In this document: one piece after another, positions 8,028 through 60,724 of the stretch
Numbering within the stretch: position 1 is the stretch's first letter
Layout: the number at the start of each line of letters is the position of its first letter
IMG/VR virus record: IMGVR_UViG_3300017763_003980
Reading direction: 5' to 3' (one strand)
From: a virus
Lineage: Duplodnaviria > Caudoviricetes
Length of the DNA stretch: 64,000 bases
Notes under the pieces: model-generated
The model's input: only the letters and a program-made list of their open reading frames with translations
What the model was told of the DNA's origin: nothing
Database searches by the model: none
Position numbers and translations under genes: made by a program

Positions 8028-8647
8028 TATTCTTGATCCATAAATGAATTAAATCTTATGTTAAAGCTAAGGCTTATTCGTTCGTGATCAGTTTTATTAG
8101 TAGCAGTTTGATGTTCTATCATTCCTGGCCAAAGATATAATGCACCTACTTCTGGCATAATAAGTTTATCTGGATTTATCATTGACATTACATAATTACT
8201 CTGCAACATTACATTAGGATTGCGTAAACTAAGTTCACCATCTTGATTATTTGATTGTACATAATACACGCCAGCTATATCAGCATCACCATGGGAATGA
8301 AGATGGGCATGTTGTCCTTTTTTAGTTTTAGTGAACCAACTTGCAGTAATTCTATAATTAGGATGTTTACTTAAATTGTTTGAAACTTCTGAATTAGGAA
8401 GTGTATTAAGATATTGCTTGATACAAAAGTCTAAATGTCGTAAAAAATTATTACACTCATTTTTAGTAAGAATACATTCATTAAACGGATTTTCACTTAG
8501 TTCATGTGTATTACTAGTCCAGTGTCTATTTTGTGCAAACTTTACACTATCACAAGCCTCAAATAATTCTTTCTGGACTATATCTAATCCAGAGCCTTCT
8601 AGCATTTTTCTATAAATAGGAATACCAAAGAGTTCTATAGTATGCAT
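8027..8647 (-). CDS. 2OG-Fe(II) oxygenase superfamily protein (TIGR02466-like)
   Basis: ASWFT...HLHSHG...AGVYY...LWPGMIEH...RISLSFN. Confidence 0.8.
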   Translation of the reverse strand: MHTIELFGIPIYRKMLEGSGLDIVQKELFEACDSVKFAQNRHWTSNTHELSENPFNECILTKNECNNFLRHLDFCIKQYLNTLPNSEVSNNLSKHPNYRITASWFTKTKKGQHAHLHSHGDADIAGVYYVQSNNQDGELSLRNPNVMLQSNYVMSMINPDKLIMPEVGALYLWPGMIEHQTATNKTDHERISLSFNIRFNSFMDQE

Positions 8648-12373: not shown

Positions 12374-12402
12374 ATTATAGCACCAGATCTGGCTTGCGTC
12401 AA
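12374..12402 (-). promoter_or_regulatory. sigma70-like promoter
   Basis: TTGACG-N17-TATAAT upstream of rnh. Confidence 0.7.
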
Positions 12403-13088
12403 CCACTTTCGTTAGACTGTAAATCATCTTCTATATTGAAAAATTCTTCTGATATTATATTTTCGCCAACACTATAATATGGAGGCATATCGAGATATAA
12501 ATCAAATGCTATACTTACCCTTGGAGTTGTTCCAGTATACTCTGGAACAGCATGTTCGACGTAACTTGGAAATAGAGTCATTCCACCTTTGAAGTTTGAT
12601 ACCTCTTGACCTTGCTCCATATGCTCGTAGTATGTACATGTCTCATAGTCATCCAAATGCATATTACCACTTAAATATGCACTAAACATAGCACTGTGCC
12701 TATGTTTTGTAATACGATCTCCTTTGCGTACTACATTAAACCAACTACCAATACGTAGATTATATGGTCTAGTTCCATCTTGCATAATATAGTTAAAGTA
12801 TTGAAATTTAAGCCATTTTAGTAAATCTCCTATTTCAGGACATTCATCTTTAAATTCAAATGTATTAAATCGACCATGCCTAGTAGTAACATTGTTAGCG
12901 TCTAATCCTGTTCTACCATCATTACGATAAGGTAAGTCATTAATAATCTTTTTTTCTTTAGCTAAAAGGAATTCTCGAATAGTGTCTACTTTGTCGCTTT
13001 CATCCCATTGTGCAAATCCAAGAGGAGCGTTCCAAACTGGAGCATAAGGAGATATTGGATGCTCACTTTTAAGTCTAAGTATTTCCAT
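12399..13088 (-). CDS. 2OG-Fe(II) oxygenase superfamily protein (TIGR02466-like)
   Basis: SWFNV...KHRH...LSGNMH...FPSYVEHAV...RVSIAFD. Confidence 0.78.
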   Translation of the reverse strand: MEILRLKSEHPISPYAPVWNAPLGFAQWDESDKVDTIREFLLAKEKKIINDLPYRNDGRTGLDANNVTTRHGRFNTFEFKDECPEIGDLLKWLKFQYFNYIMQDGTRPYNLRIGSWFNVVRKGDRITKHRHSAMFSAYLSGNMHLDDYETCTYYEHMEQGQEVSNFKGGMTLFPSYVEHAVPEYTGTTPRVSIAFDLYLDMPPYYSVGENIISEEFFNIEDDLQSNESG

Positions 13089-13506: not shown

Positions 13507-13611
13507 CTAAAAACCTTTCTGTCTTAGCCTTTCTATATCTATCGGTGCTTTCATAGCTTTTGATAGTTTTTCTTGTCTTTCGCGTTCGACTTTATCATGT
13601 ACCCCATGCAT
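13507..13611 (-). CDS. possible 34-aa peptide
   Basis: MHGVHDKVERERQEKLSKAMKAPIDIERLRQKGF fills the gap after queE and overlaps its end; weak SD. Confidence 0.35.
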   Translation of the reverse strand: MHGVHDKVERERQEKLSKAMKAPIDIERLRQKGF

Positions 13612-14494
13612 TTCCGAATAAGGATATGTGGAGTCTTGGGGTGAAACGCCATCCTCTTTCCATACACGCCTCCGCAACTTCTTGAACATTAAGGTTGTAC
13701 TCTTCCGAACGTCCGCCCAGCGGCATAAGATATACTGGACAGTCGACCCCGGCGCTACGATACTCTTCGACAGCTCTAGTAACTTCATCAAAGTCATCTT
13801 TAGTAGCAACCACAAACTTAAGATAGATATTGCTACCATCCACATTGCTATACTCACTAGCAACATCAGGCTTAATAGCAGTATCCCAAGGTTCTCCGCT
13901 AACTGATAGTTTTGGGGAACAAGACCAAGTAACTTCAAATCTGTCTTGATTGCTGAGATAGTCGCAGAAATCATCTTTGAGACGTTGCGTAGTATTTGTT
14001 TCAAATGTAACATTTTTTAAATCCTGCATGCGTGGATGTTCGAATAGCTCAATGTAAAGCCGTTGCCACGCTAACAACGGTTCACCGCCTGTCATAATTA
14101 AATGTATATCTTGTCCATTATCCATTGTCCACTTACCTTCAGGAGTAAGTGAAAGAAGATGTTCTACTACTTCATCTACTTCTTTTTGCTTATTAAAATG
14201 CTTAAACTCAGGATAGATACTTGCATAAGTATCACAGCCTGTGTGTATAATAGGCAAATCGTTAAAGTCTACAGTTGTTTTATGTACATCTTTTGCAATT
14301 AATTCTGCAACCTCTGCATTATGCTTTTTACCTGCTTTGTGTTGTTCCCAACGATCTCTTGTTTCATCTGTACCAAAATTCATACAACGAAAGTTACAAC
14401 CGAAGGTACGTAGGAATACACTAGGGACTCCTACAAATCTACCTTCACCTTGTACAGAGTAAAAAGCTTCTGAGTATCTAAGCTTATTTCCCAC
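13595..14494 (-). CDS. queE: 7-carboxy-7-deazaguanine synthase (radical SAM)
   Basis: Start refined to GTG at 14494. EAFYSVQGEG, VFLRTFGCNFRC...GCDT, MTGGEP, TFETN, SCSPK and PRLH motifs. Confidence 0.9.
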   Translation of the reverse strand: MGNKLRYSEAFYSVQGEGRFVGVPSVFLRTFGCNFRCMNFGTDETRDRWEQHKAGKKHNAEVAELIAKDVHKTTVDFNDLPIIHTGCDTYASIYPEFKHFNKQKEVDEVVEHLLSLTPEGKWTMDNGQDIHLIMTGGEPLLAWQRLYIELFEHPRMQDLKNVTFETNTTQRLKDDFCDYLSNQDRFEVTWSCSPKLSVSGEPWDTAIKPDVASEYSNVDGSNIYLKFVVATKDDFDEVTRAVEEYRSAGVDCPVYLMPLGGRSEEYNLNVQEVAEACMERGWRFTPRLHISLFGNAWGT

Positions 14495-15173
14495 ACGCGA
14501 ACTCCTGCTGAAGTTTAACATTATCGATAAACTCTTTTTTAGTTGCAGGATCGTCTTTAAATGCACCACGCAATACAGTTGTTTGTGTTAGACTACTTTT
14601 TGCTCTAATACCTCTGTTCTCACAACAACCATGTGTCGCTTGTACGTATACGCCAACGTGTTCACTACCAGTTTGCTCTTGTATTGCATTTGCAATCATA
14701 ACATTAAGCTCTTCTTGTAGTGTTCCTCGCATAGCACACCATTGTGCAATACGTGTGTACTTGCTAAGACCTAATAGTTTAGGACCTGCAATAATACCAA
14801 TGTATGCCACACCTTTTACTGTTTGGTGATGATGCGAACATAAACTTGTAAGTTCACTACGCACAACCAACATACCTTCATAACCACCTTCAATGTAGTT
14901 AGGAAATGCACTTGGGTTAGGCATTGTATCATAACGACCAGACATAATTTCATTAATGTACATCTTAGCCATACGCCTTGCGGTGTCTTGACTGTTAGGA
15001 TCTGTTTTTGTATCAATTAACAGTGTTTGTAATACATTTTCGAAAGCAGGAACTGCTTCTTCAATTAGTTGTTGCTTGTCGCCTTCTTCAAGTACTTCAC
15101 TAATGTTATCATTAGCCCAGTATCTAATACCAGCTTCTTCTAGCTTTGTTTTAATTTCTTCTACTTTGCTCAC
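14484..15173 (-). CDS. folE: GTP cyclohydrolase I
   Basis: TARRMAKMY, SLCSHH, GLSKYTR, RGTLQE, HGCCENRG. Confidence 0.95.
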   Translation of the reverse strand: MSKVEEIKTKLEEAGIRYWANDNISEVLEEGDKQQLIEEAVPAFENVLQTLLIDTKTDPNSQDTARRMAKMYINEIMSGRYDTMPNPSAFPNYIEGGYEGMLVVRSELTSLCSHHHQTVKGVAYIGIIAGPKLLGLSKYTRIAQWCAMRGTLQEELNVMIANAIQEQTGSEHVGVYVQATHGCCENRGIRAKSSLTQTTVLRGAFKDDPATKKEFIDNVKLQQEFACGK

Positions 15174-15240
15174 GTTTTATATCTCCGATGTTAAGGCAGT
15201 GGATTGCCATTAATAATAAAATACAATGCACAATAATATT

Positions 15241-15269
15241 ATTATACATTGTATTTAGGTTTTTGTCAA
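15241..15269 (-). promoter_or_regulatory. sigma70-like promoter for folE-queE
   Basis: TTGACA-N17-TATAAT. Confidence 0.8.
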
Positions 15270-15274
15270 GTATT

Positions 15275-15484
15275 TTATACAAAATACTTTTCTAGCATAT
15301 CAATACGGTCTTGTGCGGCCGCCATTTGATCAAGCTCTTTCTGTATCGTTTCAATGATATCAGAATGTTCACCAATGCCTACAACCTTTTGCATGTAAAC
15401 TTCGATGTTAGTCTTATGCAACTCTAACTCCGCCTCGGCGTGTTTGATAGCTGCATTCACCATTTGTTGCTTCAAATTATCCAT
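15275..15484 (-). CDS. hypothetical protein
   Basis: Start refined to the ATG at 15484 after SD GGAGAAAGG; helical, contains VGIGEHSD. Confidence 0.7.
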   Translation of the reverse strand: MDNLKQQMVNAAIKHAEAELELHKTNIEVYMQKVVGIGEHSDIIETIQKELDQMAAAQDRIDMLEKYFV

Positions 15485-15503
15485 ACCTTTCTCCAATATT
15501 TGG

Positions 15504-15887
15504 TTAACTTAACTGGTAATTACCTTTTTCTGGAATAACATGTCTAACGCCACCACGTGGGTCTTTAGTGTCACCATCTCTTCTAAAAATCAAATGCACG
15601 TGGGGGTACATGCAAGTTTGCCCTGCACTCTCGCCTACATTCAACCCGACATTGTATCCAGTAATATTGTTTCTATTACTTTGCACATTGTCGTAACCCA
15701 TAGTAACTGCATAATTAAAACACTTGAGGATATTCTCTTGTGTTGCTTCTCTAGGTACGATAAGAGTATGTCCTTCTGTAACCGGATAAGCATCTTTATA
15801 TACTATGAAATCTCGTGTCTCCAATTCGACATCTGTCCACGGAGCTCTGTTGTCTTGTTGTGCTAATGTTAGTGTATCAGCTTTCAT
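15504..15887 (-). CDS. HIT family hydrolase
   Basis: DAYPVTEGHTLIVP, GLNVGESAGQT, PHVHL. Confidence 0.9.
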   Translation of the reverse strand: MKADTLTLAQQDNRAPWTDVELETRDFIVYKDAYPVTEGHTLIVPREATQENILKCFNYAVTMGYDNVQSNRNNITGYNVGLNVGESAGQTCMYPHVHLIFRRDGDTKDPRGGVRHVIPEKGNYQLS

Positions 15888-16444
15888 TCGTATTTACCTA
15901 CGTTTTCCCAAGGGTAAACTAACCAAACATCTTCCTCAGCTTTGTTTACTTCGTGGGCATAAAAATTAGTATGATGGAAGTCGCTAGCTAAGTTTTCTGT
16001 AAGCACTGCAAACTTTACACTGTTGCCCCAAACACTTGCCCAAGCATTATCTTCATGGGGGAAACAACCTGACATCCAGTCATTTCTAATCCAATTAAAA
16101 GTAGCACCAGTGTCATTGATATCGTCTACAATAAGAATCTTTTTTCGTCTATCAGGATCCCATCTGCTTTTATATGTTCCTTGCTCATTATAAGGAACAA
16201 TGCCAAATGCATCTTCGGCCATTGAACAGTTACTTTCTAATATGCTACCGTCACGTAGGCTAACTTTAATTGCTTCACATGGTATACCAGTCATGTTACT
16301 AATAATTGTAGCGGGAACATTGCCACCCCTTGTAATACCTACAATATAATCAGGCTTATAGTTACTTGTATACATTGTAGTTACAATTTCTGTACACATT
16401 GTTTCAACGTCTTTCCAACTATAGAAATGCTTATTGATTACCAT
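15884..16444 (-). CDS. type I phosphoribosyltransferase (xanthine/guanine PRT-like)
   Basis: VGITRGG, PRPP loop ILIVDDINDTGAT, C-terminal WLVYPWE. Confidence 0.88.
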   Translation of the reverse strand: MVINKHFYSWKDVETMCTEIVTTMYTSNYKPDYIVGITRGGNVPATIISNMTGIPCEAIKVSLRDGSILESNCSMAEDAFGIVPYNEQGTYKSRWDPDRRKKILIVDDINDTGATFNWIRNDWMSGCFPHEDNAWASVWGNSVKFAVLTENLASDFHHTNFYAHEVNKAEEDVWLVYPWENVGKYE

Positions 16445-16913
16445 TTAAATACTCCTCACTGTCTACCCAAGTATAACCACCGTCTGAATAAGAAGTGCCA
16501 AACTTAAAAGGCATAAAGCCCCAGCTTTTTGCTTTCTTACCCATATAAAAAAGACTCCAACAAGGTATTTCATTACCATCTTCGTCTTTAGCTAATTCTA
16601 ACCAATGTAGATCATCTGAATCACGATATCTAAAATGCCCTGGTCCTCGCCATACTGACTTACTACCTACAACAGCACCTTCTCGTGATCGAATAGGTAT
16701 ATGCTCATAGTAACCGCCTTTAAGAATTAGTGTTGCATAAGACCATGGATGATCATGTAACACTTCTTCGTCACTCTTTAAAACTTTGTGTAGAGTAAAG
16801 TTAAAAGGAAACCATGTACGATCTTTTAAAAATAGATAGTATCTTATAAGATAAGGAATTTTACCTGCTCTATCGTAAATTACTCTTTTTCTGTTTTTGA
16901 AAAAACTAATCAT
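16431..16913 (-). CDS. cupin-fold protein
   Basis: LHKV...LHDHPWSYATLILKGGY-E...HWL, WSLF. Confidence 0.7.
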   Translation of the reverse strand: MISFFKNRKRVIYDRAGKIPYLIRYYLFLKDRTWFPFNFTLHKVLKSDEEVLHDHPWSYATLILKGGYYEHIPIRSREGAVVGSKSVWRGPGHFRYRDSDDLHWLELAKDEDGNEIPCWSLFYMGKKAKSWGFMPFKFGTSYSDGGYTWVDSEEYLNGNQ

Positions 16914-17301
16914 TTACTTTTTTCTTCCCCATCCAATCTTGATGAACCATTTTGTAAGTAACTTTAAAATTATCAAATGCTTTGCTCAATCCTGGATACT
17001 CTGCACACATGTCTTGTATTTTATTTAAAGTAGGTAATTGGTCTACAAAATCTACTGGATCGTGTGTAGTTAAAGTAATATCATCACTACCAAATGTAAT
17101 ATCACCACCAGTACTGATTGTAAATGTTGATGCAGGATTACTACCAATTGTAAGTGTATCAGTTGTCCAAGAGCTCATTGTAGCAGAACTGTCGATATAA
17201 CTAGTATCAATAGTATCACTTACACCAGTAAGTTTTATAGTATAATCATTATCATTTGTAAAAATATCTAACTGCTCTTTCCAATCATCGTTATTACTCA
17301 C
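16906..17301 (-). CDS. hypothetical Thr/Asp-rich protein
   Basis: Start refined to GTG at 17301 after SD GAGGAG. Confidence 0.65.
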   Translation of the reverse strand: MSNNDDWKEQLDIFTNDNDYTIKLTGVSDTIDTSYIDSSATMSSWTTDTLTIGSNPASTFTISTGGDITFGSDDITLTTHDPVDFVDQLPTLNKIQDMCAEYPGLSKAFDNFKVTYKMVHQDWMGKKKVND

Positions 17302-18352
17302 CTTTAATCTCCTCGTAAAGATCCTTGCCACTAAAAAAGTTTTTCTTAAGTTTGTTAGTTTGCTTTTGTAAAGCTGGAAGATAGTCGTCATAATTTTCCA
17401 TGTACTCAATTATTTTATCTATTACGTCTTGCTTATGTAACAAATAAGTTTGAAAATCTTTAGTCCATTCACTTGGATACTTAAATGTATCTGTAGCCAT
17501 TTCTGAATAGCTAAGTCTGTCTGGTACCATAGGAATTGCATCAACTACTGCGCCTTCATACCAACTAATACCTAGTGTTTCCTGTAAGTTTGCACTAAAC
17601 ACCATCTTAGCTTCACCAAGTAAATTATGATATTCATTCTTTGTTAGTTGTTGCTCTTGGCATACAATAAAATCATATTGTGGAAGTGACTGTCGAAGAT
17701 CATTAAAGATATCAACTTGCTTTTCAGGAGCAATTCTATGTGGAAATAATATTACATCACGTTTTTCCATATGTCGATATTGCTCTAAAGAAGTACAAAG
17801 ATACTCCATAGGCCATCCAACACGTACACTTTTTCTTTCAAAGTCTAATTCAGCTGATGCAAAGGCATCTTCGAACATATCAATGTGGAATTCGGTTGCA
17901 AAAAAATTATGATCATAACACTCATACATACTTGCTTCTGCAAGCCTAACCCAAGGTTTATCACCTATGAGTCTACCTAAAAAGTCTTGTGGATCATAAC
18001 TACCTGCATGCCACATGCCACCAATATAAATGTCAACACCTAGTAGCTCTGCCATATAACGAAGCTGTATAACAGTAGGGTTCCAAGCGTCGGTATACAA
18101 AAAATAGTCGCCATCACTAATCTTTCCTTTGCAGAAAAGCTCACCGATTTGTTCGAGTTGCTTGCTTTTATATACATTTGTTCCTCCGAAATTAAGGAAA
18201 GCTCCAGGCGTAGTTGCCTGAGGCGTTTCCCCTCCACTTATAACTAAAACTTCTTCATTTGTAGCTCGCTTTAATTGCTTTGGAAGATGCTCCTTCCATT
18301 GTGCAGTGTAACGAGTATCAACTGCTTCGATATCTACAATATGAATTGTCAT
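17294..18352 (-). CDS. GT-B glycosyltransferase (GT4-like)
   Basis: FPHRIAPEKQ and the E-x7-E motif ETLGISWYE; N-terminal WHAGSYD. Confidence 0.78.
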   Translation of the reverse strand: MTIHIVDIEAVDTRYTAQWKEHLPKQLKRATNEEVLVISGGETPQATTPGAFLNFGGTNVYKSKQLEQIGELFCKGKISDGDYFLYTDAWNPTVIQLRYMAELLGVDIYIGGMWHAGSYDPQDFLGRLIGDKPWVRLAEASMYECYDHNFFATEFHIDMFEDAFASAELDFERKSVRVGWPMEYLCTSLEQYRHMEKRDVILFPHRIAPEKQVDIFNDLRQSLPQYDFIVCQEQQLTKNEYHNLLGEAKMVFSANLQETLGISWYEGAVVDAIPMVPDRLSYSEMATDTFKYPSEWTKDFQTYLLHKQDVIDKIIEYMENYDDYLPALQKQTNKLKKNFFSGKDLYEEIKGE

Positions 18353-18355
18353 TAG

Positions 18356-18547
18356 TTACTTCCTTTTATTAAAGCCGGCCTTCTTAGCACGAAGCCACCC
18401 ACGATACCTTTCGTAAGCTTGCCAGTTTGGATCGCTCTTTTTGTAAAGAGCTTTTTCATCAAACTTCTTTCCCTCAAAGCGGCAATAGTCGCGATAAGCG
18501 TCGAGGTCGTTGAAGATCTTTGCCACAACCGGGTTTTTAATAGACAT
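18356..18547 (-). CDS. hypothetical basic protein
   Basis: Start refined to the ATG at 18547 (MSIKNPVVAKIF), 63 aa. Confidence 0.6.
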   Translation of the reverse strand: MSIKNPVVAKIFNDLDAYRDYCRFEGKKFDEKALYKKSDPNWQAYERYRGWLRAKKAGFNKRK

Positions 18548-18569
18548 AGTATAATTCTTCCTTTTGTCA

Positions 18570-19103
18570 TTAACTATTTGGATAAAAAATTGAACAGCCG
18601 TTTTCGTTATCTTCACTTACTTCAATTTCGACAAAACGGCCGGGATGTCGATTTGAAATTTCTTTATATAGTTCATCTGCAATCATTTCGCAGGATTTAT
18701 GATCTAGAACAAGCACTTGACCTTCAGCGGAATCACTGTATAGTCTTTCAAGCCATCGCTTGAACTGAATGAATTCAATGTCTCTATCATCGTGAAACAC
18801 CTCAATACGCACCCTGAAGTGGAAAATGTGACGATGAGGATGACCAAGAAAACTAACATCATCCCACCCACCTGTTGCAAGTTTGGGATCATCTAATGCT
18901 GCCGGATAACAATGAATACCTTCCTTTGAGAATGTAACCCATATACTTCGTTGTGCATTATTTAGTGCATTTTCTTTTTGCATTTTAGCATCTTCCTCTC
19001 TCATTCGTCTACCCATGTAATCATGATAGCTTTCACGATTGACTGCATCATACGATGGGTAACCTTTTTCAAAAACTGGTGATGTGTGTTCATCTTCTAC
19101 CAT
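18570..19103 (-). CDS. QueD-like T-fold protein (candidate DpdL)
   Basis: LGHPHRHIF (LxxxHRHxF) in place of the QueD CxxxHGH; DRDIEFI; SCEMIA. Confidence 0.7.
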   Translation of the reverse strand: MVEDEHTSPVFEKGYPSYDAVNRESYHDYMGRRMREEDAKMQKENALNNAQRSIWVTFSKEGIHCYPAALDDPKLATGGWDDVSFLGHPHRHIFHFRVRIEVFHDDRDIEFIQFKRWLERLYSDSAEGQVLVLDHKSCEMIADELYKEISNRHPGRFVEIEVSEDNENGCSIFYPNS

Positions 19104-19109
19104 ATTATT

Positions 19110-19138
19110 AGTATACTTTCATTTAATAGGTTTGTCAA
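19110..19138 (-). promoter_or_regulatory. sigma70-like promoter for the QueD-like gene
   Basis: TTGACA-N17-TATACT, 6 nt before the ATG. Confidence 0.7.
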
Positions 19139-19634
19139 GGCCATATTTGGACCAATTAGTAAATTTATTTGCATCCATCAAGTCATGAAGTCTGTGACTC
19201 CAAACACCTGGATTAGTTGCGGCAAATCCTTTGTCATCAATTTTAATCATAGTGTTGTAGTTCCATAGTTTTACATATGGAATCGGAACACGGATTTGCG
19301 GAATAAAATTGTCGTACTCTGTGAGACCGTCTTCCAAAATCTCTTCTGCACAAGTAATCGGAATATCTAAACTACACCAATAATCTTGTTTTAAGAAGTG
19401 TGTAATCATTTCTCCCCAACCAGGTCCGACCTTATTTGCTTGCACACTATGATTAGCACCAAAGAAAATATGTTTTACTTGATTATATGCCAATAGTTGT
19501 TCTTCGATATCTTTAACAGGTTGTACTCCTGTTACAAACAATGTATACATACCATATGCAGGAGTATGCTCTACTTCTGTACCAGTAAAGTATGTTACGT
19601 TATCAAACTCGCCTGCGTCATAATTTCTTTTCAT
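19119..19634 (-). CDS. conserved-looking hypothetical protein in the deazaguanine cluster
   Basis: 171 aa; GTEVEHTPAYG, HIFFGANHS, KIDD...NPGVW; alternating beta/alpha pattern. Confidence 0.7.
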   Translation of the reverse strand: MKRNYDAGEFDNVTYFTGTEVEHTPAYGMYTLFVTGVQPVKDIEEQLLAYNQVKHIFFGANHSVQANKVGPGWGEMITHFLKQDYWCSLDIPITCAEEILEDGLTEYDNFIPQIRVPIPYVKLWNYNTMIKIDDKGFAATNPGVWSHRLHDLMDANKFTNWSKYGLDKPIK

Positions 19635-19843
19635 GATATAGGTCCTAGGTCAACAAGTTTCTTTTCAATTCGATGTATTTCGTCTTTAAACCATAATTTT
19701 TTTGTTTTGAGTACTACAAGTTCTTGATCTGGCATTAATTTTTTATATCCTTCGATAATTTCTTTGTCCAGTGTTCTATGCTTTTTATAAAGTTCTTGTA
19801 GGTATATTGCATATTTTTCATGCTTCGCTGTGAAGTTGCTCAT
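19631..19843 (-). CDS. small coiled-coil protein (DUF465-like)
   Basis: KHRTLDKEI...LKTKKLWFKDEI. Confidence 0.6.
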   Translation of the reverse strand: MSNFTAKHEKYAIYLQELYKKHRTLDKEIIEGYKKLMPDQELVVLKTKKLWFKDEIHRIEKKLVDLGPIS

Positions 19844-21377
19844 CCTCTAGTACCTCTAACTTTTCTTCATTAAGTTCCTGCTCTTGTTCTTCTTCAACAT
19901 TATCGTCTGTGTCAAACAATGAATTAAAGTAGGTTTGTGCATTAACAGTCTTTTTACCAATAGCACCTCTAGTACCTGGTATTGACATCCAGAATTTTGA
20001 AAATTCTTCAATTACTGCATTCGCTTCGTCTCGACTGTCAGTTGCGAATATTGCTTCCACAACATCTCTAAAAAATAACCTGTCGAAACGTTCTTCAACA
20101 AGCATGTTCGGAATGATTCCATTGTCGTATTGTCTATTTGCTTCTTGTACTGCATTAATATGACTCCATACATTATGACCCATTTGGATCGCATATGAAA
20201 AACTATCCCAAGATGTTTTTCCTTCTTTACCTATTTTATTTAGATCTCCTGGACCATATATGCATATATCTTTGGCTTGTAGTTCAGCAGTAATAGGAGA
20301 ATCTTTAAAGCTAGTGTGCTTACCTTCTCTTACAAATGCACTGCCAAATGGTGTAGTATCTTGTGATAATCCTTTATCATCAATACTAGGAACCATTCGA
20401 TATACCCATTTCAATCTATCTTGTGTTTCGAGTTCACAATAAATCTGTCCATTAGCAGTTGCTAAGAAAGGACTTGCACAATCAAATGTAATCATAAAGT
20501 TTGGATTATGATATTTACGAACTGCTCTTTGTATATCAGTTAGTAGTGTAGCCCACTCTAGTTTTGATGTACCTAAGAAGTGCATTACATCATGTATGCC
20601 TGTTTCCAGTAGTCCGTCGAATCTCAATGCAACTAGACGTTTAAGAACCAAATGTACATCACACATGTTCTGACCACCCATTGACCACCCATTAAAATGT
20701 GTGTCTGGATATACTTTAGGATCGCAGTAGTCTTTCATTTGATTGTACCAATCATCTGCGTCTGCGTGATTTTCGCCTTGTAATACATTTAAAAATTTAC
20801 AAGCACCTGTTCTGTGCTTCATAAAATAATCATTGTTAATACGTGTTGCGGCTACTGCTTCTGCATATGTTGAAATACCTGTTGCTTTTGCACCTTCTGG
20901 AGAACGTGCTACCCAAGCTGGAATATCAAGTATCATTCCATAGTCCATGTAAGCATCCATCCATTTAAGAACACCGTCACGTTTCTTTTGTGCTTTAGGA
21001 CAGTTGGGATCTTTCCAGTCTCCTTCCCAAACGCCTTTACCAATTTGGAAACCGCCACTATCACCTAATAACCAAGTATTTGCTCTGTCTCTGTTTCGTA
21101 CCATATCTTCTTTAGGTACAAACTTAGTTGTGTCTAAGTCGGCATGCCCTGCAGAATACAAACACCATTTGTATTGGAACATACCTTCTTGTTTATTAAG
21201 ATAGTTTAAGCTTTCAACTCCATTTGGAAAGTTGCTAGGTACTCTAGCCGGATCAACATACGGACCTTTCACAGGATCAGGATGTCGCTGTTTACCAACA
21301 TACGTTGCAAAGAACCCGCTAAGTGCTGGTAAAAAAGTTGCGTAATCCTGTTGTGCTTTTGTCAAGTCTGTAATCAT
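19818..21377 (-). CDS. TGT-fold guanine transglycosylase, DpdA-like DNA modification enzyme
   Basis: GDSGGFQ, MILDIP, NVLQG, GWSMGG, HFLGTS and TFDCASP TGT motifs; clustered with folE and queE. Confidence 0.8.
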   Translation of the reverse strand: MITDLTKAQQDYATFLPALSGFFATYVGKQRHPDPVKGPYVDPARVPSNFPNGVESLNYLNKQEGMFQYKWCLYSAGHADLDTTKFVPKEDMVRNRDRANTWLLGDSGGFQIGKGVWEGDWKDPNCPKAQKKRDGVLKWMDAYMDYGMILDIPAWVARSPEGAKATGISTYAEAVAATRINNDYFMKHRTGACKFLNVLQGENHADADDWYNQMKDYCDPKVYPDTHFNGWSMGGQNMCDVHLVLKRLVALRFDGLLETGIHDVMHFLGTSKLEWATLLTDIQRAVRKYHNPNFMITFDCASPFLATANGQIYCELETQDRLKWVYRMVPSIDDKGLSQDTTPFGSAFVREGKHTSFKDSPITAELQAKDICIYGPGDLNKIGKEGKTSWDSFSYAIQMGHNVWSHINAVQEANRQYDNGIIPNMLVEERFDRLFFRDVVEAIFATDSRDEANAVIEEFSKFWMSIPGTRGAIGKKTVNAQTYFNSLFDTDDNVEEEQEQELNEEKLEVLEDEQLHSEA

Positions 21378-21580: not shown

Positions 21581-22312
21581 TTATTTGCTCTGTGCTGGAA
21601 GTATGTAATCATATTTTGCCAAACCACTATCTACACTAATTTGCATAGCACCTTGATCACTAATACTCATAGTAATATCACCATCTAAATTTAAGATAGC
21701 TTGCACTTGTGCAACAGGCCAACTCCATGTATGAGATAATGTACCTTCGACACCAGCTTCAAAAACAAATGTACCTGCGTGTGTACTTGCATCACCAAAG
21801 CTAAACACTAAGTCATTGTCTTTAGTTGAAACATTAAATGTAGGCTCTTCTGAGTGTGCCGCACTTTGCAATTTCATTCTACCAATTGCTGCCATACTAG
21901 GTTGAAATGTTACATTCCAAGACGCACCTTTAAATTTTACACTTTTAAGTTTTTCTTCAATGATCTGTTTATTCATAAATCGATAATCATTTTCAAAGTC
22001 ACCACTTGCGTTTTCAAAGTGTATATGTGTAGGAATAACTTCACCGTTCCTATCAGCAGTTACTACATCAATTTTAGCATCTTTTTGATACTCAGGATTT
22101 TTTAAATGTAATGCTAGTTTATCTAGGTTAGGCATTCCAAATGTGCCGTTAAATTCTGACACAGCTGAGTGCGTAGTAGAATTTAAAATCACAGAACGAT
22201 CTTCTGCCATACTTTCGAAAGTTGTTGCTTCGCTTTCACTGTTTACCTTTACTAAGCTTAAAAAGCCTAGTGCGTGGGTTTTAGCAACAACGTCTTGTAA
22301 AATGTCTTTCAT
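21581..22312 (-). CDS. DNA polymerase sliding clamp (gp45/PCNA-like)
   Basis: 243 aa with a repeated beta/alpha pattern, located between replication genes; assigned from size, pattern and context. Confidence 0.65.
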   Translation of the reverse strand: MKDILQDVVAKTHALGFLSLVKVNSESEATTFESMAEDRSVILNSTTHSAVSEFNGTFGMPNLDKLALHLKNPEYQKDAKIDVVTADRNGEVIPTHIHFENASGDFENDYRFMNKQIIEEKLKSVKFKGASWNVTFQPSMAAIGRMKLQSAAHSEEPTFNVSTKDNDLVFSFGDASTHAGTFVFEAGVEGTLSHTWSWPVAQVQAILNLDGDITMSISDQGAMQISVDSGLAKYDYILPAQSK

Positions 22313-23073
22313 GCGGGTTCTCCATTAGTTATATTAAGTATAATGCCTTTATCAGCGTTTGTCAAGTAGTTTTCTATACTATATTTAGGTTTAAAGCCTA
22401 AGCTTTTCATTTTTTCTGTATTAGCACATGTAAATGTCCTTTCGTTCGGGGTATTTAGACGAATAGGAGCATCAGGTGCTAAGTCACGGACTTTAATCGG
22501 GTTACCTGATCCGATGTCTAATACTCCTTTGACATGGGGTTTATTAATTAGTATTTGTATAGCATCGCAAACATCATTAATATGTATGAAGTCTCGATGA
22601 TGGTTAGTTACGTATTCTAATTTATTGTTAAAAAGTTTATCAAGAAACATTCCTTTTCTTGGAGTGTCACTCCATACAGTATGAAATCTCATACCTAATG
22701 TATTTGGATAGCGTTCTGCTAATTCTTCTAGCACATATTTACTTGCCGCATAAGGATTTAAGTCTGGTTCGTATGCACTCGAACTGCTCGCATACAATAT
22801 ACGTGTTTCAGGATAACGCTCAAACAATCGCCTACTTGCTTCTATATTATTCTGCCAATATGCCGCAGGATCATTAATGCTTTCACGAACACCAGAACGT
22901 CCTGCTAAGTGTATAATTAAATCAAAATCTACGTTAGGTAAATCACAAGTAAGCAAGTCTTGTCCGTCTAATAAATCGATACCTACTACGTCATTGTGTA
23001 ATAGTCTTTTGTGCAATCTACTACCAATAAATCCTCTATGACCTGTTAGTAGTATTTTTTGTACGGCTATCAT
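22309..23073 (-). CDS. NAD-dependent epimerase/dehydratase (extended SDR)
   Basis: Start refined to the ATG at 23073. TGHRGFIGS, IHLAG, ASSSSAY, YAASK, RDFIHINDV. Confidence 0.9.
   Translation of the reverse strand: MIAVQKILLTGHRGFIGSRLHKRLLHNDVVGIDLLDGQDLLTCDLPNVDFDLIIHLAGRSGVRESINDPAAYWQNNIEASRRLFERYPETRILYASSSSAYEPDLNPYAASKYVLEELAERYPNTLGMRFHTVWSDTPRKGMFLDKLFNNKLEYVTNHHRDFIHINDVCDAIQILINKPHVKGVLDIGSGNPIKVRDLAPDAPIRLNTPNERTFTCANTEKMKSLGFKPKYSIENYLTNADKGIILNITNGEPA
22337..22365 (-). promoter_or_regulatory. sigma70-like promoter for the clamp gene
   Basis: TTGACA-N17-TATACT within the 3' end of the epimerase gene. Confidence 0.65.
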
Positions 23074-23789
23074 GATGCTATTCCAGACTCTTGAAAAAAT
23101 TGTAGATACTCTCTTGTTTGCTGCCAACTACTTACTGCTCTAGTGTGGTTCACAACTTGTGCTAAAGGATAATCGTTTCCGTCCTTATCCATTCTATCTC
23201 CGAAGAAATATTTAGTATCTTCGGCATCAAAGTCTTTTATAATTTGTGCTTTATCAGTGCCGATAGGTGATATATCGATACCTGTTTCTCCGCCTACTGT
23301 TGCCTTGATCTTAGGAAACAATGCATTGAATTGTCTTGCAATTATTTCACGTTCAGAAGTTAAAGAGTCATAAACTACATATTTTTCTCTTTGTTCTTTT
23401 GTTGCATTGCGACCAACAACACTAAAATTTACCATACCAGGACGATGTTCAAAATGCAATCCTGTTCGTAAGTTGAAATCACTTTCTGTGAGCTCAATAC
23501 TAAGCCACTCGTGTGCATCTTCTGGTAATATCCAATCGTTAGATCTAACATTTACATCTTTTTCCCAAACATCATTACCATTGCAATTATATACACGTTT
23601 ACAGCTATTATAAATTGTTTCGCCGATTTGTTCGAGCGTTTTAGGCCGATCACTGCCTGTAACAAGATAAACATCATTTGATTGGCAAAACGATTTAAAC
23701 CAAACTGCAAATCGTTCATCGATTACTTGCCTGCTCGGAGTTAATGTTCCGTCAACATCAAAAATAAATTTATTTTTTACTTTTTTCAC
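23070..23789 (-). CDS. phosphomannomutase, HAD-IIB (eukaryote PMM-type)
   Basis: Start refined to GTG at 23789. FDVDGTLT, VTGSD, EHRPGMVNFSVVGR, GGETGID, FFGD...GNDYP. Confidence 0.88.
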   Translation of the reverse strand: MKKVKNKFIFDVDGTLTPSRQVIDERFAVWFKSFCQSNDVYLVTGSDRPKTLEQIGETIYNSCKRVYNCNGNDVWEKDVNVRSNDWILPEDAHEWLSIELTESDFNLRTGLHFEHRPGMVNFSVVGRNATKEQREKYVVYDSLTSEREIIARQFNALFPKIKATVGGETGIDISPIGTDKAQIIKDFDAEDTKYFFGDRMDKDGNDYPLAQVVNHTRAVSSWQQTREYLQFFQESGIAS

Positions 23790-23949
23790 CCTTCTTTTTC
23801 CTTTTTGCATACATACCACTAGTATATTCTACTTCTTCAGATCTAGCACCATATGGATAAACTGTAATTTCGTTGCCTTTAGCTAACCATTCTTTGACTA
23901 ATTTTCTGTCTGCTTCAATAGCCAATCTCTTTTCTTCTGCGTCAGTCAT
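23770..23949 (-). CDS. hypothetical 59-aa protein (not in ORF track)
   Basis: MTDAEEKRLAIEADRKLVKEWLAKGNEITVYPYG...; ATGA overlap with the upstream stop. Confidence 0.6.
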   Translation of the reverse strand: MTDAEEKRLAIEADRKLVKEWLAKGNEITVYPYGARSEEVEYTSGMYAKRKKKGEKSKK

Positions 23950-24362
23950 TTCTTCTCCGTGTCAGCTACTCGTGAACGTAAATCACTTGTGCTGAATCGG
24001 TGATCTCGTTTATTAAAATGCAAATCTATATCTCTACTACGACATATATCCTTGCCAGTAAAATCCTTATCGCGATATTCTTCTCCTAATATTCTAATGT
24101 TTATAGGATACATCTGCAAAATATCTTCTAAATCTTCTTCTGTGCCATAAGGGATAATTTCATCTACATAACCAACTGCTTTTAATTGTGTATAACGTTC
24201 TACAATAGTTTGTATTGGTGAGTTCTTTTCTTTTCTATCTACGCTAGGATCAACTTGTAACCCCACTAACAAATAGTCGCATTGCTCTTTCGCTTCACGT
24301 AGCATAATTACATGTCCTGCATGTAATAGATCAAATGTACTGCAAGTAAATCCTACTTTCAT
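23946..24362 (-). CDS. cytidylyltransferase (TagD/RfaE-like)
   Basis: FDLLHAGH (HxGH), LLVGL, RDHRFSTS. Confidence 0.88.
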   Translation of the reverse strand: MKVGFTCSTFDLLHAGHVIMLREAKEQCDYLLVGLQVDPSVDRKEKNSPIQTIVERYTQLKAVGYVDEIIPYGTEEDLEDILQMYPINIRILGEEYRDKDFTGKDICRSRDIDLHFNKRDHRFSTSDLRSRVADTEKK

Positions 24363-24691
24363 TAGTGTTTCCTTTGCCCGTCAAAGACGCAAATAAAATA
24401 CATGTCTGCATCACGTGGATTTATTACTTTATGGAATACACCATCATTGATAGGTACTACATCGCCTGCTTCTACTTCGATAAATTCATTATCCAATTGC
24501 ATTTGTCCTGCCCCTTCGATAAACAAATATACTTCTTCTTGTCCATCATGTTTATGTCCACTTGTTTCTTTATGTCCGTGTAATCTGGTACTGCTTAGGA
24601 CTAGTGTATTACCAAAAGGATTGTCTTTAACAACATACCTATCATCTTGTTTTGCAATATAACCGCCTATGTCATCCAGATTTACTTTCAT
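24362..24691 (-). CDS. cupin protein (mannose-6-phosphate isomerase-like)
   Basis: GHKHDGQEEVYLFIEG...GVFHKVIN. Confidence 0.8.
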   Translation of the reverse strand: MKVNLDDIGGYIAKQDDRYVVKDNPFGNTLVLSSTRLHGHKETSGHKHDGQEEVYLFIEGAGQMQLDNEFIEVEAGDVVPINDGVFHKVINPRDADMYFICVFDGQRKH

Positions 24692-59869: not shown

Positions 59870-59904
59870 ATTTAATTCCTTACGAAGTATTTATCGGAAT
59901 TATT

Positions 59905-60702: not shown

Positions 60703-60724
60703 CGATTTTTCCTTGTTATACTAT

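What the first reader, a model, noticed from the sequence alone, without database searches (positions are those of the whole stretch)
13595..21377. 7-deazaguanine DNA-modification cluster with no queC/queF and an atypical QueD-like protein
Seen: folE, queE, a T-fold gene with LGHPHRHIF instead of CxxxHGH, a 171-aa unknown and a 519-aa TGT-fold gene; no queC, queF, archaeosine synthase or canonical queD in the window. Established: FolE, QueD and QueE make CDG, QueC makes preQ0, and DpdA-family transglycosylases insert the base into DNA to block restriction. From memory, to be verified: LxxxHRHxF marks DpdL, a proposed CDG decarboxylase. Inference: the DNA may carry CDG, unsubstituted 7-deazaguanine or a new derivative shaped by the co-clustered unknown genes.
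Basis: partly seen in the sequence, partly recalled or inferred. Interest (0 to 1): 0.7.

Follow-up and report, generated by a model that had tools for sequence, protein, structure and literature searches.

The report
Phage deazaguanine DNA-modification cluster with glycosyltransferase
An uncultured giant marine phage carries a conserved gene set that should replace guanine in its DNA with a 7-deazaguanine base. The set also includes a sugar-transferring enzyme that always travels with it, so the final base may be a sugar-decorated purine that nobody has described yet.

Summary
The interval encodes FolE, QueE, a T-fold protein with LGHPHRHIF, a 171-aa unknown and a 519-aa protein whose model is a tRNA-guanine-transglycosylase (TGT) fold (pLDDT 90.6; Z 17-18 to TGTs) with the DSGGFQ and FDC catalytic motifs.

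- **T-fold protein:** it is a DpdL homologue (56% to ACP17, 31% to phiST). The LxxxHRHxF motif is confirmed in PMC10516641.
- **QueD:** the "missing" QueD is an effect of the window edge. A phiST-type QueD (PF01242, CxxxHGY) lies about 17.5 kb past the window end, on contigs that chain to the window at 99.9-100% identity.
- **QueC/QueF:** none in the window. None passes the Pfam cut-off in a related complete 357-kb genome.
- **171-aa protein:** it is not DpdM.
a GT4 glycosyltransferase (EX7E motif) and a purine phosphoribosyltransferase. Both are present in 29/29 related contigs. The GT sits next to or near DpdL in six cultured phage lineages (PA5oct, ACP17, Phosso, BUDD, BCSR5, BUCT-ZZ01). 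Sugar-nucleotide genes lie close by.

Most likely this is a DpdL-type 7-deazaguanine DNA modification inserted by a new, unannotated DpdA clade. A glycosylated derivative has about 0.4 odds. Overlapping windows of this same genome were noted earlier in the scan, but no other DNA was.

The parts
13595..14569 (-). QueE-like radical-SAM CDG synthase. The 324-aa ORF starts at GTG and overlaps folE, so the real start is probably Met17. It has CNFRC, then an insert of about 50 aa, then a third Cys.
   Evidence: phrog_2076 E 4e-54 over full length; QueE NCBIfam partial hits; phmmer to 9g QueE E 3.6e-9; present in 29/29 long related loci
14484..15173 (-). FolE, GTP cyclohydrolase I
   Evidence: PF01227 E 1.8e-37; NF006824 E 2.6e-41, below its curated cut-off; 27/29 loci
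15504..15887 (-). HIT-family nucleotide hydrolase/transferase (PHVHLIF in place of HxHxHxx); role unknown
   Evidence: PF01230 E 3.3e-7; PDB HIT proteins and Ap4A phosphorylase E 1e-6; 28/29 loci
15884..16444 (-). Purine (6-oxopurine-type) phosphoribosyltransferase. Proposed to salvage the guanine released by base exchange, or to ribosylate the deazapurine.
   Evidence: PF00156 E 1e-8; PDB purine PRT/HGPRT E 3e-8; 29/29 loci; homologues inside the clusters of BUCT-ZZ01 (annotated XGPRT) and PA5oct
16431..16913 (-). Cupin-like protein (HDHPW... motif), function unknown
   Evidence: phrog_4786 E 1.6e-29; 25/29 loci; not found in the cultured-phage clusters
16906..17409 (-). 167-aa unknown, poorly conserved
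   Evidence: No family hit; 15/29 loci
17294..18352 (-). GT4-family (GT-B, retaining type) glycosyltransferase with EX7E motif (E258...E266)
   Evidence: Alignment A3; 9/12 family members hit PF00534, best 6.8e-12; Atlas feature hits to viral GT1-family clusters; 29/29 loci; next to or near DpdL in six cultured lineages
18356..18616 (-). 86-aa unknown between GT and DpdL
   Evidence: ORF only; 24/29 loci
18570..19103 (-). DpdL-family T-fold protein (QueD paralogue; LGHPHRHIF). The N-terminal 50 aa or so are extra relative to the 115-127-aa homologues.
   Evidence: phrog_17812 E 1.3e-32; tblastn ACP17 56%, phiST 31%; alignment with DpdL and QueD; 29/29 loci
19119..19634 (-). 171-aa conserved unknown, enzyme-like: many invariant polar residues and a partial beta/alpha barrel weakly resembling the QueE/radical-SAM core, but without the Cys cluster
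   Evidence: A2 alignment; 5100 homologues; AF2 pLDDT 72; VIA best hits QueE at Z 6-6.8, not significant; Atlas TM 0.60 to a QueE cluster; homologue inside the ACP17 cluster and elsewhere in PA5oct
19631..19843 (-). 70-aa unknown
   Evidence: ORF only; 20/29 loci
19818..21377 (-). Divergent TGT-fold, DpdA-like transglycosylase (DSGGFQ at 106-111, D151, HFLG at 266-269, FDCASP at 298-303; no CxCxxC...H zinc site)
   Evidence: AF2 pLDDT 90.6; Foldseek and VIA matches to TGT; invariant residues; profile links to ACP17, BUDD, BUCT-ZZ01 and phiST DpdA-type proteins
21581..22312 (-). Sliding-clamp homologue. It marks the border with the replication module and is not part of the pathway.
   Evidence: The family HMM hits the annotated sliding clamp of Phosso (E 2e-47) and PA5oct EST35_0314
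22309..24691 (-). Sugar-nucleotide mini-operon: SDR epimerase 22309-23127, HAD-IIB/PMM-like mutase 23070-23819, adenylyl/cytidylyl-transferase 23946-24362, cupin 24362-24691. It is a possible donor supply for the GT (inferred).
   Evidence: Pfam and NCBIfam; conserved upstream of the TGT-like gene in 46, 23, 27 and 17 of 55 related loci

Best explanation
This is a DpdL-type 7-deazaguanine DNA-modification module of a roughly 300-350-kb marine T4-like jumbo phage, set inside its replication genes (polB and clamp on one side, RNase H on the other). Proposed chain: GTP is turned into H2NTP by FolE, into CPH4 by a phiST-type QueD encoded about 60 kb away (just outside the window), and into 7-carboxy-7-deazaguanine (CDG) by QueE. 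With no QueC, the pathway stops at CDG. The DpdL paralogue then processes CDG; the published proposal is decarboxylation to 7-deazaguanine. The 519-aa TGT-fold enzyme belongs to a large, so far unannotated DpdA-like clade. It exchanges guanine in phage DNA for the deazapurine by the usual two-aspartate transglycosylase chemistry. The purine PRT recaptures the excised guanine as GMP, which feeds FolE again. What is shown here: gene identities, folds, motifs, synteny and co-occurrence. What is inferred: every enzymatic step, DNA as the substrate, and the identity of the final base. Sub-reading with its own odds (about 0.4): the GT4 glycosyltransferase that always accompanies this DpdL/DpdA type, using a phage-made NDP-sugar, adds a sugar to the deazapurine or its precursor. 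The virion base would then be a glycosylated 7-deazaguanine derivative rather than plain dDG.
For: Gene identities. DpdL: the motif and its role as proposed CDG decarboxylase are in PMC10516641; homology to ACP17 and phiST DpdL and Leu at the QueD Cys position are. TGT fold. Invariant D106/S107/G109, D151, H266/G269 and D299 across 49 sequences of 28-46% identity. Profile links to phage DpdA-type proteins: ACP17 E 2e-9, BUDD hhalign 96%, BUCT-ZZ01 5e-4, phiST DpdA3 hhalign 64%. QueD: found 17.5 kb past the window end on contigs chained to the window at 99.9-100% identity, carrying the same CxxxHGY motif as phiST and ACP17 QueD. A PF01242 gene is also found about 55 kb from the cluster in two of the related contigs, G001 and G004. 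No QueC or QueF. Module conservation: u171, DpdL, GT, PRT and QueE in 29/29 related contigs, HIT 28/29, FolE 27/29. Closest cultured relative: PA5oct has the same TGT-like/GT/DpdL/PRT/QueE block. Its DNA resists G-containing restriction sites and is attacked by nucleases that sense modified G (PMC12191111). Evidence for the sugar sub-reading: a GT homologue lies next to or within about 3-4 kb of DpdL in PA5oct, ACP17, Phosso, BUDD, BCSR5 and BUCT-ZZ01. In Phosso the DpdL-GT pair stays adjacent although the TGT-like gene is 170 kb away. There is an SDR epimerase-like gene in the PA5oct cluster and a second GT in BUCT-ZZ01. A sugar-nucleotide operon lies beside the marine cluster.
Against: No chemistry has been measured for this phage or any close relative. 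DpdL activity has never been shown: phiST and ACP17 dpdL plus dpdA gave no dDG in E. coli (PMC10516641). The TGT-like family matches no Pfam TGT or DUF6610 model (1/49 members at E 0.043). It lacks the TGT zinc site, and its link to phiST DpdA3 is weak, so DNA as its substrate rests on context only. Against the sugar sub-reading: 7-deazaguanine has no hydroxyl for an O-glycosyltransferase. phiST (measured dDG), RHph_I1_18, Ahp1, D479 and Bakedbeans have DpdL without this GT.
Confidence: 0.75

Rival explanations
1. Plain dDG (or dCDG), as in Cellulophaga phage phiST. FolE, QueD, QueE, DpdL and DpdA do the whole job. The glycosyltransferase, the sugar-nucleotide genes, the 171-aa protein, HIT and the cupin serve another target (virion proteins, host envelope, other metabolites) and are merely co-transcribed with the replication-stage genes.
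For: phiST has DpdL without any GT, and its DNA carries dDG (PMC10516641). Vibriophage VP1 has full 7-deazaguanine substitution (10.1101/2025.10.29.685425). 7-deazaguanine offers no obvious O-acceptor. Five DpdL lineages lack the GT.
Against: The DpdL-GT linkage survives in seven otherwise rearranged lineages, including Phosso, where the pair is separated from the TGT-like gene. GT is present in 29/29 marine relatives. Sugar-epimerase or second-GT genes recur inside the PA5oct and BUCT-ZZ01 clusters. ACP17 dpdL plus dpdA alone gave no dDG in E. coli, and the authors suggested that further enzymes may be needed.
Confidence: 0.4
2. Nucleotide-level (pre-replicative) route, analogous to toyocamycin and tubercidin biosynthesis. 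The PRT couples CDG or 7-deazaguanine to PRPP, DpdL or other enzymes tailor the nucleotide, and the phage polymerase incorporates the deaza-dGTP. The TGT-like protein would then have a repair, proof-reading or tRNA role.
For: A purine PRT is part of the cluster in three lineages (marine group, PA5oct, BUCT-ZZ01). A HIT nucleotide enzyme is adjacent. phiST has a kinase-like AAA_18 protein and MazG beside DpdL. An ADG nucleoside was reported in CP220-infected cells (cited in PMC10516641). That PRTs act on CDG in tubercidin synthesis is from my own knowledge and was not checked here.
Against: A TGT-fold enzyme with intact catalytic aspartates is conserved in every cluster. ACP17, BUDD and BCSR5 show no PRT in the fetched cluster regions. 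The published view is that all known phage 7-deazaguanines are inserted post-replicatively by DpdA. Guanine salvage explains the PRT equally well.
Confidence: 0.12
3. The module modifies tRNA (a queuosine/archaeosine-like anticodon or D-loop base), not DNA.
For: The only solved structural matches are tRNA-guanine transglycosylases. Jumbo phages often carry tRNA genes.
Against: No Pfam TGT hit, no zinc site and no tRNA-binding extension was recognised. Profile relatives are phage DpdA-type proteins. The genes sit between the clamp and RNase H in the replication module. PA5oct virion DNA behaves as G-modified. There is no QueC, QueF or QueA for a queuosine-type product.
Confidence: 0.05

Closest known systems
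Cellulophaga phage phiST dDG system: FolE, QueD, QueE, DpdL (CGPG_00067), DpdA3 (CGPG_00065); Cui, Hutinet et al. 2023, PMC10516641
   Same: FolE, QueD and QueE without QueC. A DpdL paralogue with LxxxHRHxF. A TGT-superfamily protein that Pfam cannot see. QueD of the CxxxHGY type.
   Different: phiST DpdA3 is 259 aa and only marginally similar to the 519-aa family (hhalign 64% over 83 columns). phiST has no GT4, no 171-aa protein and no PRT, but has MazG and a kinase-like protein. DpdL identity is only 31%.
Acidovorax phage ACP17 cluster: QueD, FolE, ASD50402, ASD50403, ASD50404, DpdL, QueE. Its dpdL and dpdA were tested without success in PMC10516641.
   Same: The same gene set in the same neighbourhood of replication genes: a homologue of the 171-aa protein (E 1e-24), a TGT-like protein (E 2e-9 to the family profile), the GT4 (37% identity), DpdL (56%) and QueE.
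   Different: The TGT-like protein is 424 aa and very diverged. QueD is inside the cluster. No PRT, HIT, cupin or adjacent sugar-nucleotide genes were seen in the fetched region.
Pseudomonas jumbo phage PA5oct (Wroclawvirus), EST35_0316-0322
   Same: Closest cultured relative of the 519-aa protein (36% identity, 81% coverage). The order is clamp-like, TGT-like, GT (44%), DpdL (51%), epimerase-like, PRT-like, QueE. Its DNA is reported to behave as G-modified (PMC12191111).
   Different: DpdL has HFH instead of HRH. The 171-aa homologue lies elsewhere in the genome. The modification has not been identified chemically.
T4-type glucosyl-hydroxymethylcytosine (alpha/beta-glucosyltransferases acting on DNA)
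   Same: A phage GT-B-fold glycosyltransferase of about 350 aa, encoded with base-modification and replication genes. This gives a functional precedent for post-replicative sugar transfer onto a modified base.
   Different: No sequence similarity was found (no PDB hit). The acceptor there is a hydroxymethyl group on a pyrimidine. No hydroxyl-bearing deazapurine is predicted here.
Mannosyl- and galactosyl-queuosine in animal tRNA (QTMAN/QTGAL; PMC12518689)
   Same: The only known sugar-decorated 7-deazaguanine nucleosides. They show that glycosyltransferases can act on deazaguanine derivatives within a nucleic acid.
   Different: There the sugar goes on the cyclopentenediol of queuosine in tRNA, a group this pathway cannot make (no QueC, QueF or QueA). 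No homology was tested.

Membership tests
DpdL (proposed CDG decarboxylase, QueD paralogue) | Signature LxxxHRHxF replacing the QueD motif CxxxHGH | tested here: met
   L-GHP-HRH-I-F in window 18570-19103. The motif definition was read in PMC10516641, section 16. The alignment puts Leu at the QueD Cys column.
DpdL (proposed CDG decarboxylase, QueD paralogue) | Sequence homology to the named DpdL proteins of phiST (CGPG_00067) and ACP17 | tested here: met
   tblastn: 56% to ACP17 (E 5e-34) and 31% to phiST (E 7e-7). The family HMM scores E 1e-46 and 1e-16.
DpdL (proposed CDG decarboxylase, QueD paralogue) | Genomic context: FolE, QueD, QueE and a DpdA present, QueC absent | tested here: met
   FolE, QueE and the TGT-like gene are in the cluster. 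QueD lies 17.5 kb beyond the window on a 99.9-100% identical contig chain. There is no QueC in the window, and none passes the Pfam cut-off in the related 357-kb genome.
DpdL (proposed CDG decarboxylase, QueD paralogue) | CDG decarboxylase activity | not testable with these tools
   This has never been shown for any member.
QueD / PTPS (PF01242), tested for the 177-aa T-fold protein | Catalytic Cys in CxxxHG(H/Y) and a Pfam PF01242 match | tested here: not met
   No PF01242 hit at E<=0.01. Leu replaces Cys. The true QueD of this phage is a different gene.
DpdA (DNA guanine transglycosylase, TGT superfamily) | TGT (beta/alpha)8-barrel fold | tested here: met
   AF2 pLDDT 90.6. The top 50 Foldseek hits are all TGT, prob 1.0. 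VIA Z 17-18 over about 300 aligned residues.
DpdA (DNA guanine transglycosylase, TGT superfamily) | Catalytic aspartates (the DSGGFQ motif Asp and the nucleophile Asp in FDC) | tested here: met
   D106, S107, G109 and D299 are invariant, and D151 too, in 49 sequences of 28-46% identity. Equating them with Z. mobilis D102, D156 and D280 rests on the motifs and on my own knowledge.
DpdA (DNA guanine transglycosylase, TGT superfamily) | Membership of a named subfamily (bDpdA, DpdA1, DpdA2 via PF01702; DpdA3 phiST type; DpdA4 via DUF6610) | tested here: inconclusive
   PF01702 is hit by 1/49 members at E 0.043 and DUF6610 by 0/49. 9g DpdA1 is not detectably similar. phiST DpdA3: hhalign 64%. The nearest relatives are the ACP17, BUDD and BUCT-ZZ01 types. 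It is probably a separate clade allied to the DpdA3-like proteins.
DpdA (DNA guanine transglycosylase, TGT superfamily) | Inserts a 7-deazaguanine base into DNA | not testable with these tools
   Only context supports this: the replication module, the co-clustered CDG pathway, and G-modified DNA in PA5oct.
DpdM (preQ1 methyltransferase, DUF3109), tested for the 171-aa protein | DUF3109 domain and the CxxxCxxCC metal motif | tested here: not met
   No Pfam hit. Only one conserved Cys, C87, in alignment A2. The motif definition is from PMC10516641.
GT4 / Glycos_transf_1 retaining GT-B glycosyltransferases | PF00534 match and the C-terminal EX7E motif | tested here: met
   9/12 family members hit PF00534 (best 6.8e-12), although the window protein itself does not. 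E258-x7-E266 is conserved, with E266 invariant. The PDB profile's best hit is the WlaC protein, E 0.002; that it is a GT4-type enzyme is from my own knowledge. The fold itself was not modelled.
QueE (CDG synthase) | Radical-SAM core with a cluster-binding Cys triad and a QueE family match | tested here: inconclusive
   phrog_2076 E 4e-54. The NCBIfam QueE models score far below their cut-offs. The Cys spacing is unusual: CxxxC, then about 49 aa, then C.

The most novel reading that the evidence does not exclude
The virion DNA of this abundant marine jumbo-phage group, and of PA5oct, ACP17, Phosso, BUDD, BCSR5 and BUCT-ZZ01, carries a sugar-decorated 7-deazaguanine derivative. This would be the first glycosylated purine in DNA. 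It would be made by the conserved team of DpdL, a GT4 glycosyltransferase and a new DpdA clade (with the 171-aa QueE-fold-like protein as a helper), using a phage-made NDP-sugar. DpdL would then not be, or not only be, a simple CDG decarboxylase.
Probability: 0.35. Interest if true: 0.9.

Novelty: new variant of a known kind. Interest (0 to 1): 0.66.

Why it matters
7-deazaguanine DNA bases are a major phage counter-defence, and the chemistry of the DpdL branch is unproven.

- **A new gene set.** This locus shows that the commonest DpdL context is a seven-gene set: FolE, QueD, QueE, DpdL, a long unannotated TGT-fold enzyme, a GT4 glycosyltransferase and often a purine PRT. The gene set described for phiST does not include the GT4 or the PRT.
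- **Abundance.** More than 7,800 homologues of the transglycosylase (E <= 0.001; the 120 best listed are 77-86% identical) and 965 clusters at 50% identity were found. The system is widespread in the ocean.
- **A possible explanation for a failed experiment.** dpdL plus dpdA alone failed in E. coli; missing partner genes could be the reason.
- **A candidate for an unidentified modification.** The G modification of the therapeutic-candidate phage PA5oct has not been identified, and this gene set is a candidate for making it.
- **A testable idea.** The possibility of a glycosylated purine in DNA can be tested by LC-MS on phages that are already in culture.
- **Annotation.** Whatever the base turns out to be, the 519-aa family deserves annotation as a DpdA-like clade.

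Tried and rejected
- **Near-identity search.** Megablast of the whole interval against 50,697 phage records found nothing; only protein-level relatives exist.
- **Own genome.** No whole genome is held for the window, and the 280-kb ENA contig could not be searched by family. QueD was therefore located by walking with identical proteins.
- **PTPS scan of viral contigs.** The scan with the G001 PTPS returned the wrong (G001-like) lineage and was not needed.
- **Supplements.** The supplementary tables of PMC10516641 are not held, so I could not see how the authors classed ACP17's DpdA.
- **171-aa protein.**
  - The Atlas feature search gave only a 0.75 hit.
  - Foldseek against PDB gave no hit at E<=0.001.
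  - VIA and Atlas shape searches put QueE and radical-SAM cores first, but only at Z<=6.8 and TM 0.6.
  - hhalign against the phage's own QueE gave 0.07% probability.
  - The QueE-like fold is therefore only a lead.
- **Cupin 16431-16913.** No PDB sequence match.
- **GT.** No PDB match with the single sequence.
- **Direct BLASTP.** The 519-aa protein against ACP17 ASD50403, and ASD50403 against phiST DpdA3, was not significant; only profiles link them.
- **Literature.** No paper in the held library reports a glycosylated deazaguanine in DNA.
- **Complex prediction.** None was run, because I do not claim that any of these proteins bind each other.

Full report
**What is there**

All genes in 13595-21377 lie on the minus strand. 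Read in the direction of transcription, the region holds:

| Gene | Coordinates | Evidence |
|---|---|---|
| Clamp homologue | 21581-22312 | |
| 519-aa protein | 19818-21377 | |
| 70-aa ORF | 19631-19843 | |
| 171-aa protein | 19119-19634 | |
| 177-aa T-fold protein | 18570-19103 | |
| 86-aa ORF | 18356-18616 | |
| 352-aa protein | 17294-18352 | |
| 167-aa ORF | 16906-17409 | |
| Cupin | 16431-16913 | phrog_4786 |
| Purine phosphoribosyltransferase | 15884-16444 | PF00156; PDB purine PRTs |
| HIT protein | 15504-15887 | |
| 73-aa ORF | 15275-15496 | |
| FolE | 14484-15173 | PF01227, E 1.8e-37 |
| QueE | 13595-14569 | phrog_2076, E 4e-54 |

Upstream lie a sugar-nucleotide mini-operon (SDR epimerase, HAD-IIB/PMM-like mutase, rfaE-domain-II-like nucleotidyltransferase, cupin; 22309-24691) and the family-B DNA polymerase. 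Downstream lie a conserved 136-aa ORF and RNase H. The cluster therefore sits inside the replication module.

**The phage**

Megablast finds no cultured relative. The 519-aa protein has more than 598 matching stretches in IMG/VR; the 80 kept are 78-97% identical, on contigs of up to 357 kb. It has more than 7,800 homologues at E <= 0.001 among 5.8 billion proteins (the 120 best listed are 77-86% identical) and 965 clusters at 50% identity.

Synteny is strict. Among 29 related contigs with at least 9.5 kb downstream of the gene, the 171-aa protein, the T-fold protein, the 352-aa protein, the PRT and QueE are present in 29/29. HIT is in 28, FolE in 27 and the cupin in 25. Earlier notes of this scan describe the same genome as a giant marine T4-like phage.

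**The T-fold protein is DpdL**

The paper that defined DpdL says that the QueD signature CxxxHGH is changed to LxxxHRHxF. It also says DpdL occurs in phages with DpdA, FolE, QueD and QueE but no QueC (PMC10516641).

The window protein reads L-GHP-HRH-I-F. It hits ACP17 (56%) and phiST CGPG_00067 (31%) by tblastn. It aligns with them with Leu in the Cys column of phiST, ACP17 and related QueDs. It is not a PF01242 member.

**QueD is not missing**

Three of five related large contigs carry a PF01242 gene. One of these is the 357-kb contig rated complete by CheckV. In G001 and G004 the gene lies about 55 kb from the cluster. The window holds no homologue of it.

I walked outward from the window end using identical proteins:

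- The window matches L100 at 99.91% over 13.3 kb.
- L100 and L183 are the same 280-kb contig.
- L183 matches L185 at 100% over 11.2 kb.
- L185 carries a 159-aa PF01242 gene (motif HCRFLHGY, the same CxxxHGY as phiST and ACP17 QueD).

This gene falls at a position equal to roughly window coordinate 81.5 kb, about 17.5 kb past the window end. The FolE-QueD-QueE route to CDG is therefore complete.

QueC is absent from the window: phmmer with 9g QueC-type proteins finds nothing, and no ORF has an SGGxDS motif. It does not pass the Pfam cut-off in any of the five relatives. QueF is absent from all five.

**The 519-aa protein is a TGT-fold enzyme of an unannotated clade**

- No Pfam, PHROG or NCBIfam model hits it. 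Only 1 of 49 diverse relatives touches PF01702 (E 0.043), and none touches DUF6610.
- With a 49-sequence alignment, AlphaFold2 gives pLDDT 90.6.
- The top 50 Foldseek hits are all tRNA-guanine transglycosylases (prob 1.0).
- VIA-align gives Z 17-18 over about 300 residues.
- The invariant residues fall in the TGT catalytic motifs: D106-S-G-G-F-Q, D151, H266-F-L-G and F-D299-C.
- The CxCxxC...H zinc site of TGTs is not conserved.
- The family profile reaches ACP17 ASD50403 (E 2e-9), the BUDD protein annotated as queuine tRNA-ribosyltransferase (hhalign 96%), a BUCT-ZZ01 protein (5e-4), BCSR5 (0.01) and, weakly, phiST DpdA3 (hhalign 64%). It does not reach 9g DpdA1.

I read it as a new DpdA-like clade allied to the DpdA3-type proteins. 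Its DNA substrate is inferred from context only.

**The conserved companions**

*The 352-aa protein is a GT4-type glycosyltransferase.*

- The EX7E motif is present (E258...E266).
- 9 of 12 family members hit PF00534 (best 6.8e-12).
- Atlas neighbours are viral GT1-family clusters.
- Its homologues lie beside or within about 3-4 kb of DpdL in PA5oct, ACP17, Phosso, BUDD, BCSR5 and BUCT-ZZ01.
- In Phosso, DpdL and GT stay adjacent while the TGT-like gene is 170 kb away.
- PA5oct has an SDR epimerase-like gene inside its cluster, and BUCT-ZZ01 has a second GT.
- DpdL without this GT occurs in phiST, RHph_I1_18, Ahp1, D479 and Bakedbeans.

*The purine PRT* recurs in the clusters of BUCT-ZZ01 and PA5oct.

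*The 171-aa protein:*

- It has 5,100 homologues and many invariant polar residues.
- It has a homologue inside the ACP17 cluster and one elsewhere in PA5oct.
- It is not DpdM.
- Its model (pLDDT 72) is a partial beta/alpha barrel whose best shape matches are QueE cores. These scores are not significant, and there is no sequence support.

**Mechanism**

Most likely (0.75):

1. GTP is converted to CDG by FolE, QueD and QueE.
2. DpdL processes CDG; the published proposal is decarboxylation.
3. The DpdA-like enzyme swaps G in phage DNA for the deazapurine.
4. The PRT recycles the released guanine to GMP.

Every enzymatic step is inferred. Independent support comes from PA5oct, whose DNA resists G-containing restriction sites and is targeted by nucleases that sense modified G. 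The base itself has not been identified (PMC12191111).

Whether the GT and the neighbouring sugar-nucleotide genes decorate the base is open. I give it about 0.35-0.4. The linkage argues for it. The lack of an obvious acceptor hydroxyl, and the existence of GT-less DpdL phages with plain dDG, argue against it.

Rivals: a plain dDG system with an unrelated GT (0.4), a nucleotide-level route through the PRT (0.12), and a tRNA target (0.05).

**Novelty**

The system belongs to the known DpdL/DpdA kind, so it is a new variant of a known kind. Three things look new:

- the large unannotated DpdA-like clade;
- the recurrent GT4, PRT and 171-aa companions, none of which is mentioned in the defining paper (no "glycosyl" or "phosphoribosyl" in its text);
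- the possibility of a glycosylated purine in DNA, for which I found no report.

Overlapping windows of this same genome had already been flagged by first readers of this scan.

Noticed in passing
window 22309-24691: A four-gene sugar-nucleotide mini-operon (SDR epimerase with best partial hit to heptose 6-epimerase, HAD-IIB/PMM-like mutase, rfaE-domain-II-like nucleotidyltransferase, small cupin). It is wedged between the DNA polymerase and the sliding clamp and is variably conserved in relatives (46, 23, 27 and 17 of 55).
   Followed up: partly
L185:5047-5526 (about 17.5 kb beyond the window end): The phage's QueD (PF01242, CxxxHGY). It sits next to a 2OG-Fe(II) oxygenase, a UvdE-like endonuclease and an E1_FCCH-domain protein, far from the rest of the pathway. 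A 2932-aa protein and an Fe-S assembly (IscA-like) gene lie between it and the window.
   Followed up: partly
window 8033-8488 and 12399-13088: Two paralogous PF13759 2OG-Fe(II) oxygenase genes. One lies two genes downstream of queE, but it was not detected there in any of the 14 related contigs with enough sequence. Similar paralogues flank QueD in the related genome G001.
   Followed up: partly
L094:6260-7411 (Vibrio phage Bakedbeans gp176): Here DpdL is the C-terminal part of a 383-aa protein. The N-terminal 250 aa or so have no Pfam hit. This fusion partner could hint at DpdL's real function.
   Followed up: partly
L090:2897-3391 (Xanthomonas phage BUDD): A gene annotated as 'PAPS reductase family' (PP-loop) sits inside the BUDD FolE-GT-TGT-DpdL-QueE cluster. 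It could be a QueC-like ATP-dependent step in that lineage.
   Followed up: no
L089:7323-7802 (phiST CGPG_00066): The phiST gene between DpdL and DpdA3, described as unknown in the paper, matches the nucleotide-kinase-like AAA_18 domain (E 9e-7). BCSR5 has an AAA_28 protein next to its DpdL.
   Followed up: no
window 13595-14569: This QueE carries an insert of about 50 residues between the CxxxC pair and the presumed third cluster Cys. Its called GTG start overlaps folE by 86 nt.
   Followed up: no
L001:12772-13149 (PA5oct EST35_0318): PA5oct DpdL reads HFH where all other DpdL proteins read HRH.
   Followed up: no
window 54455-63190: Very large genes near the window end: an 1804-aa YHYH/He_PIG-domain protein and an 821-aa subtilisin-like Peptidase_S8.
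   Followed up: no
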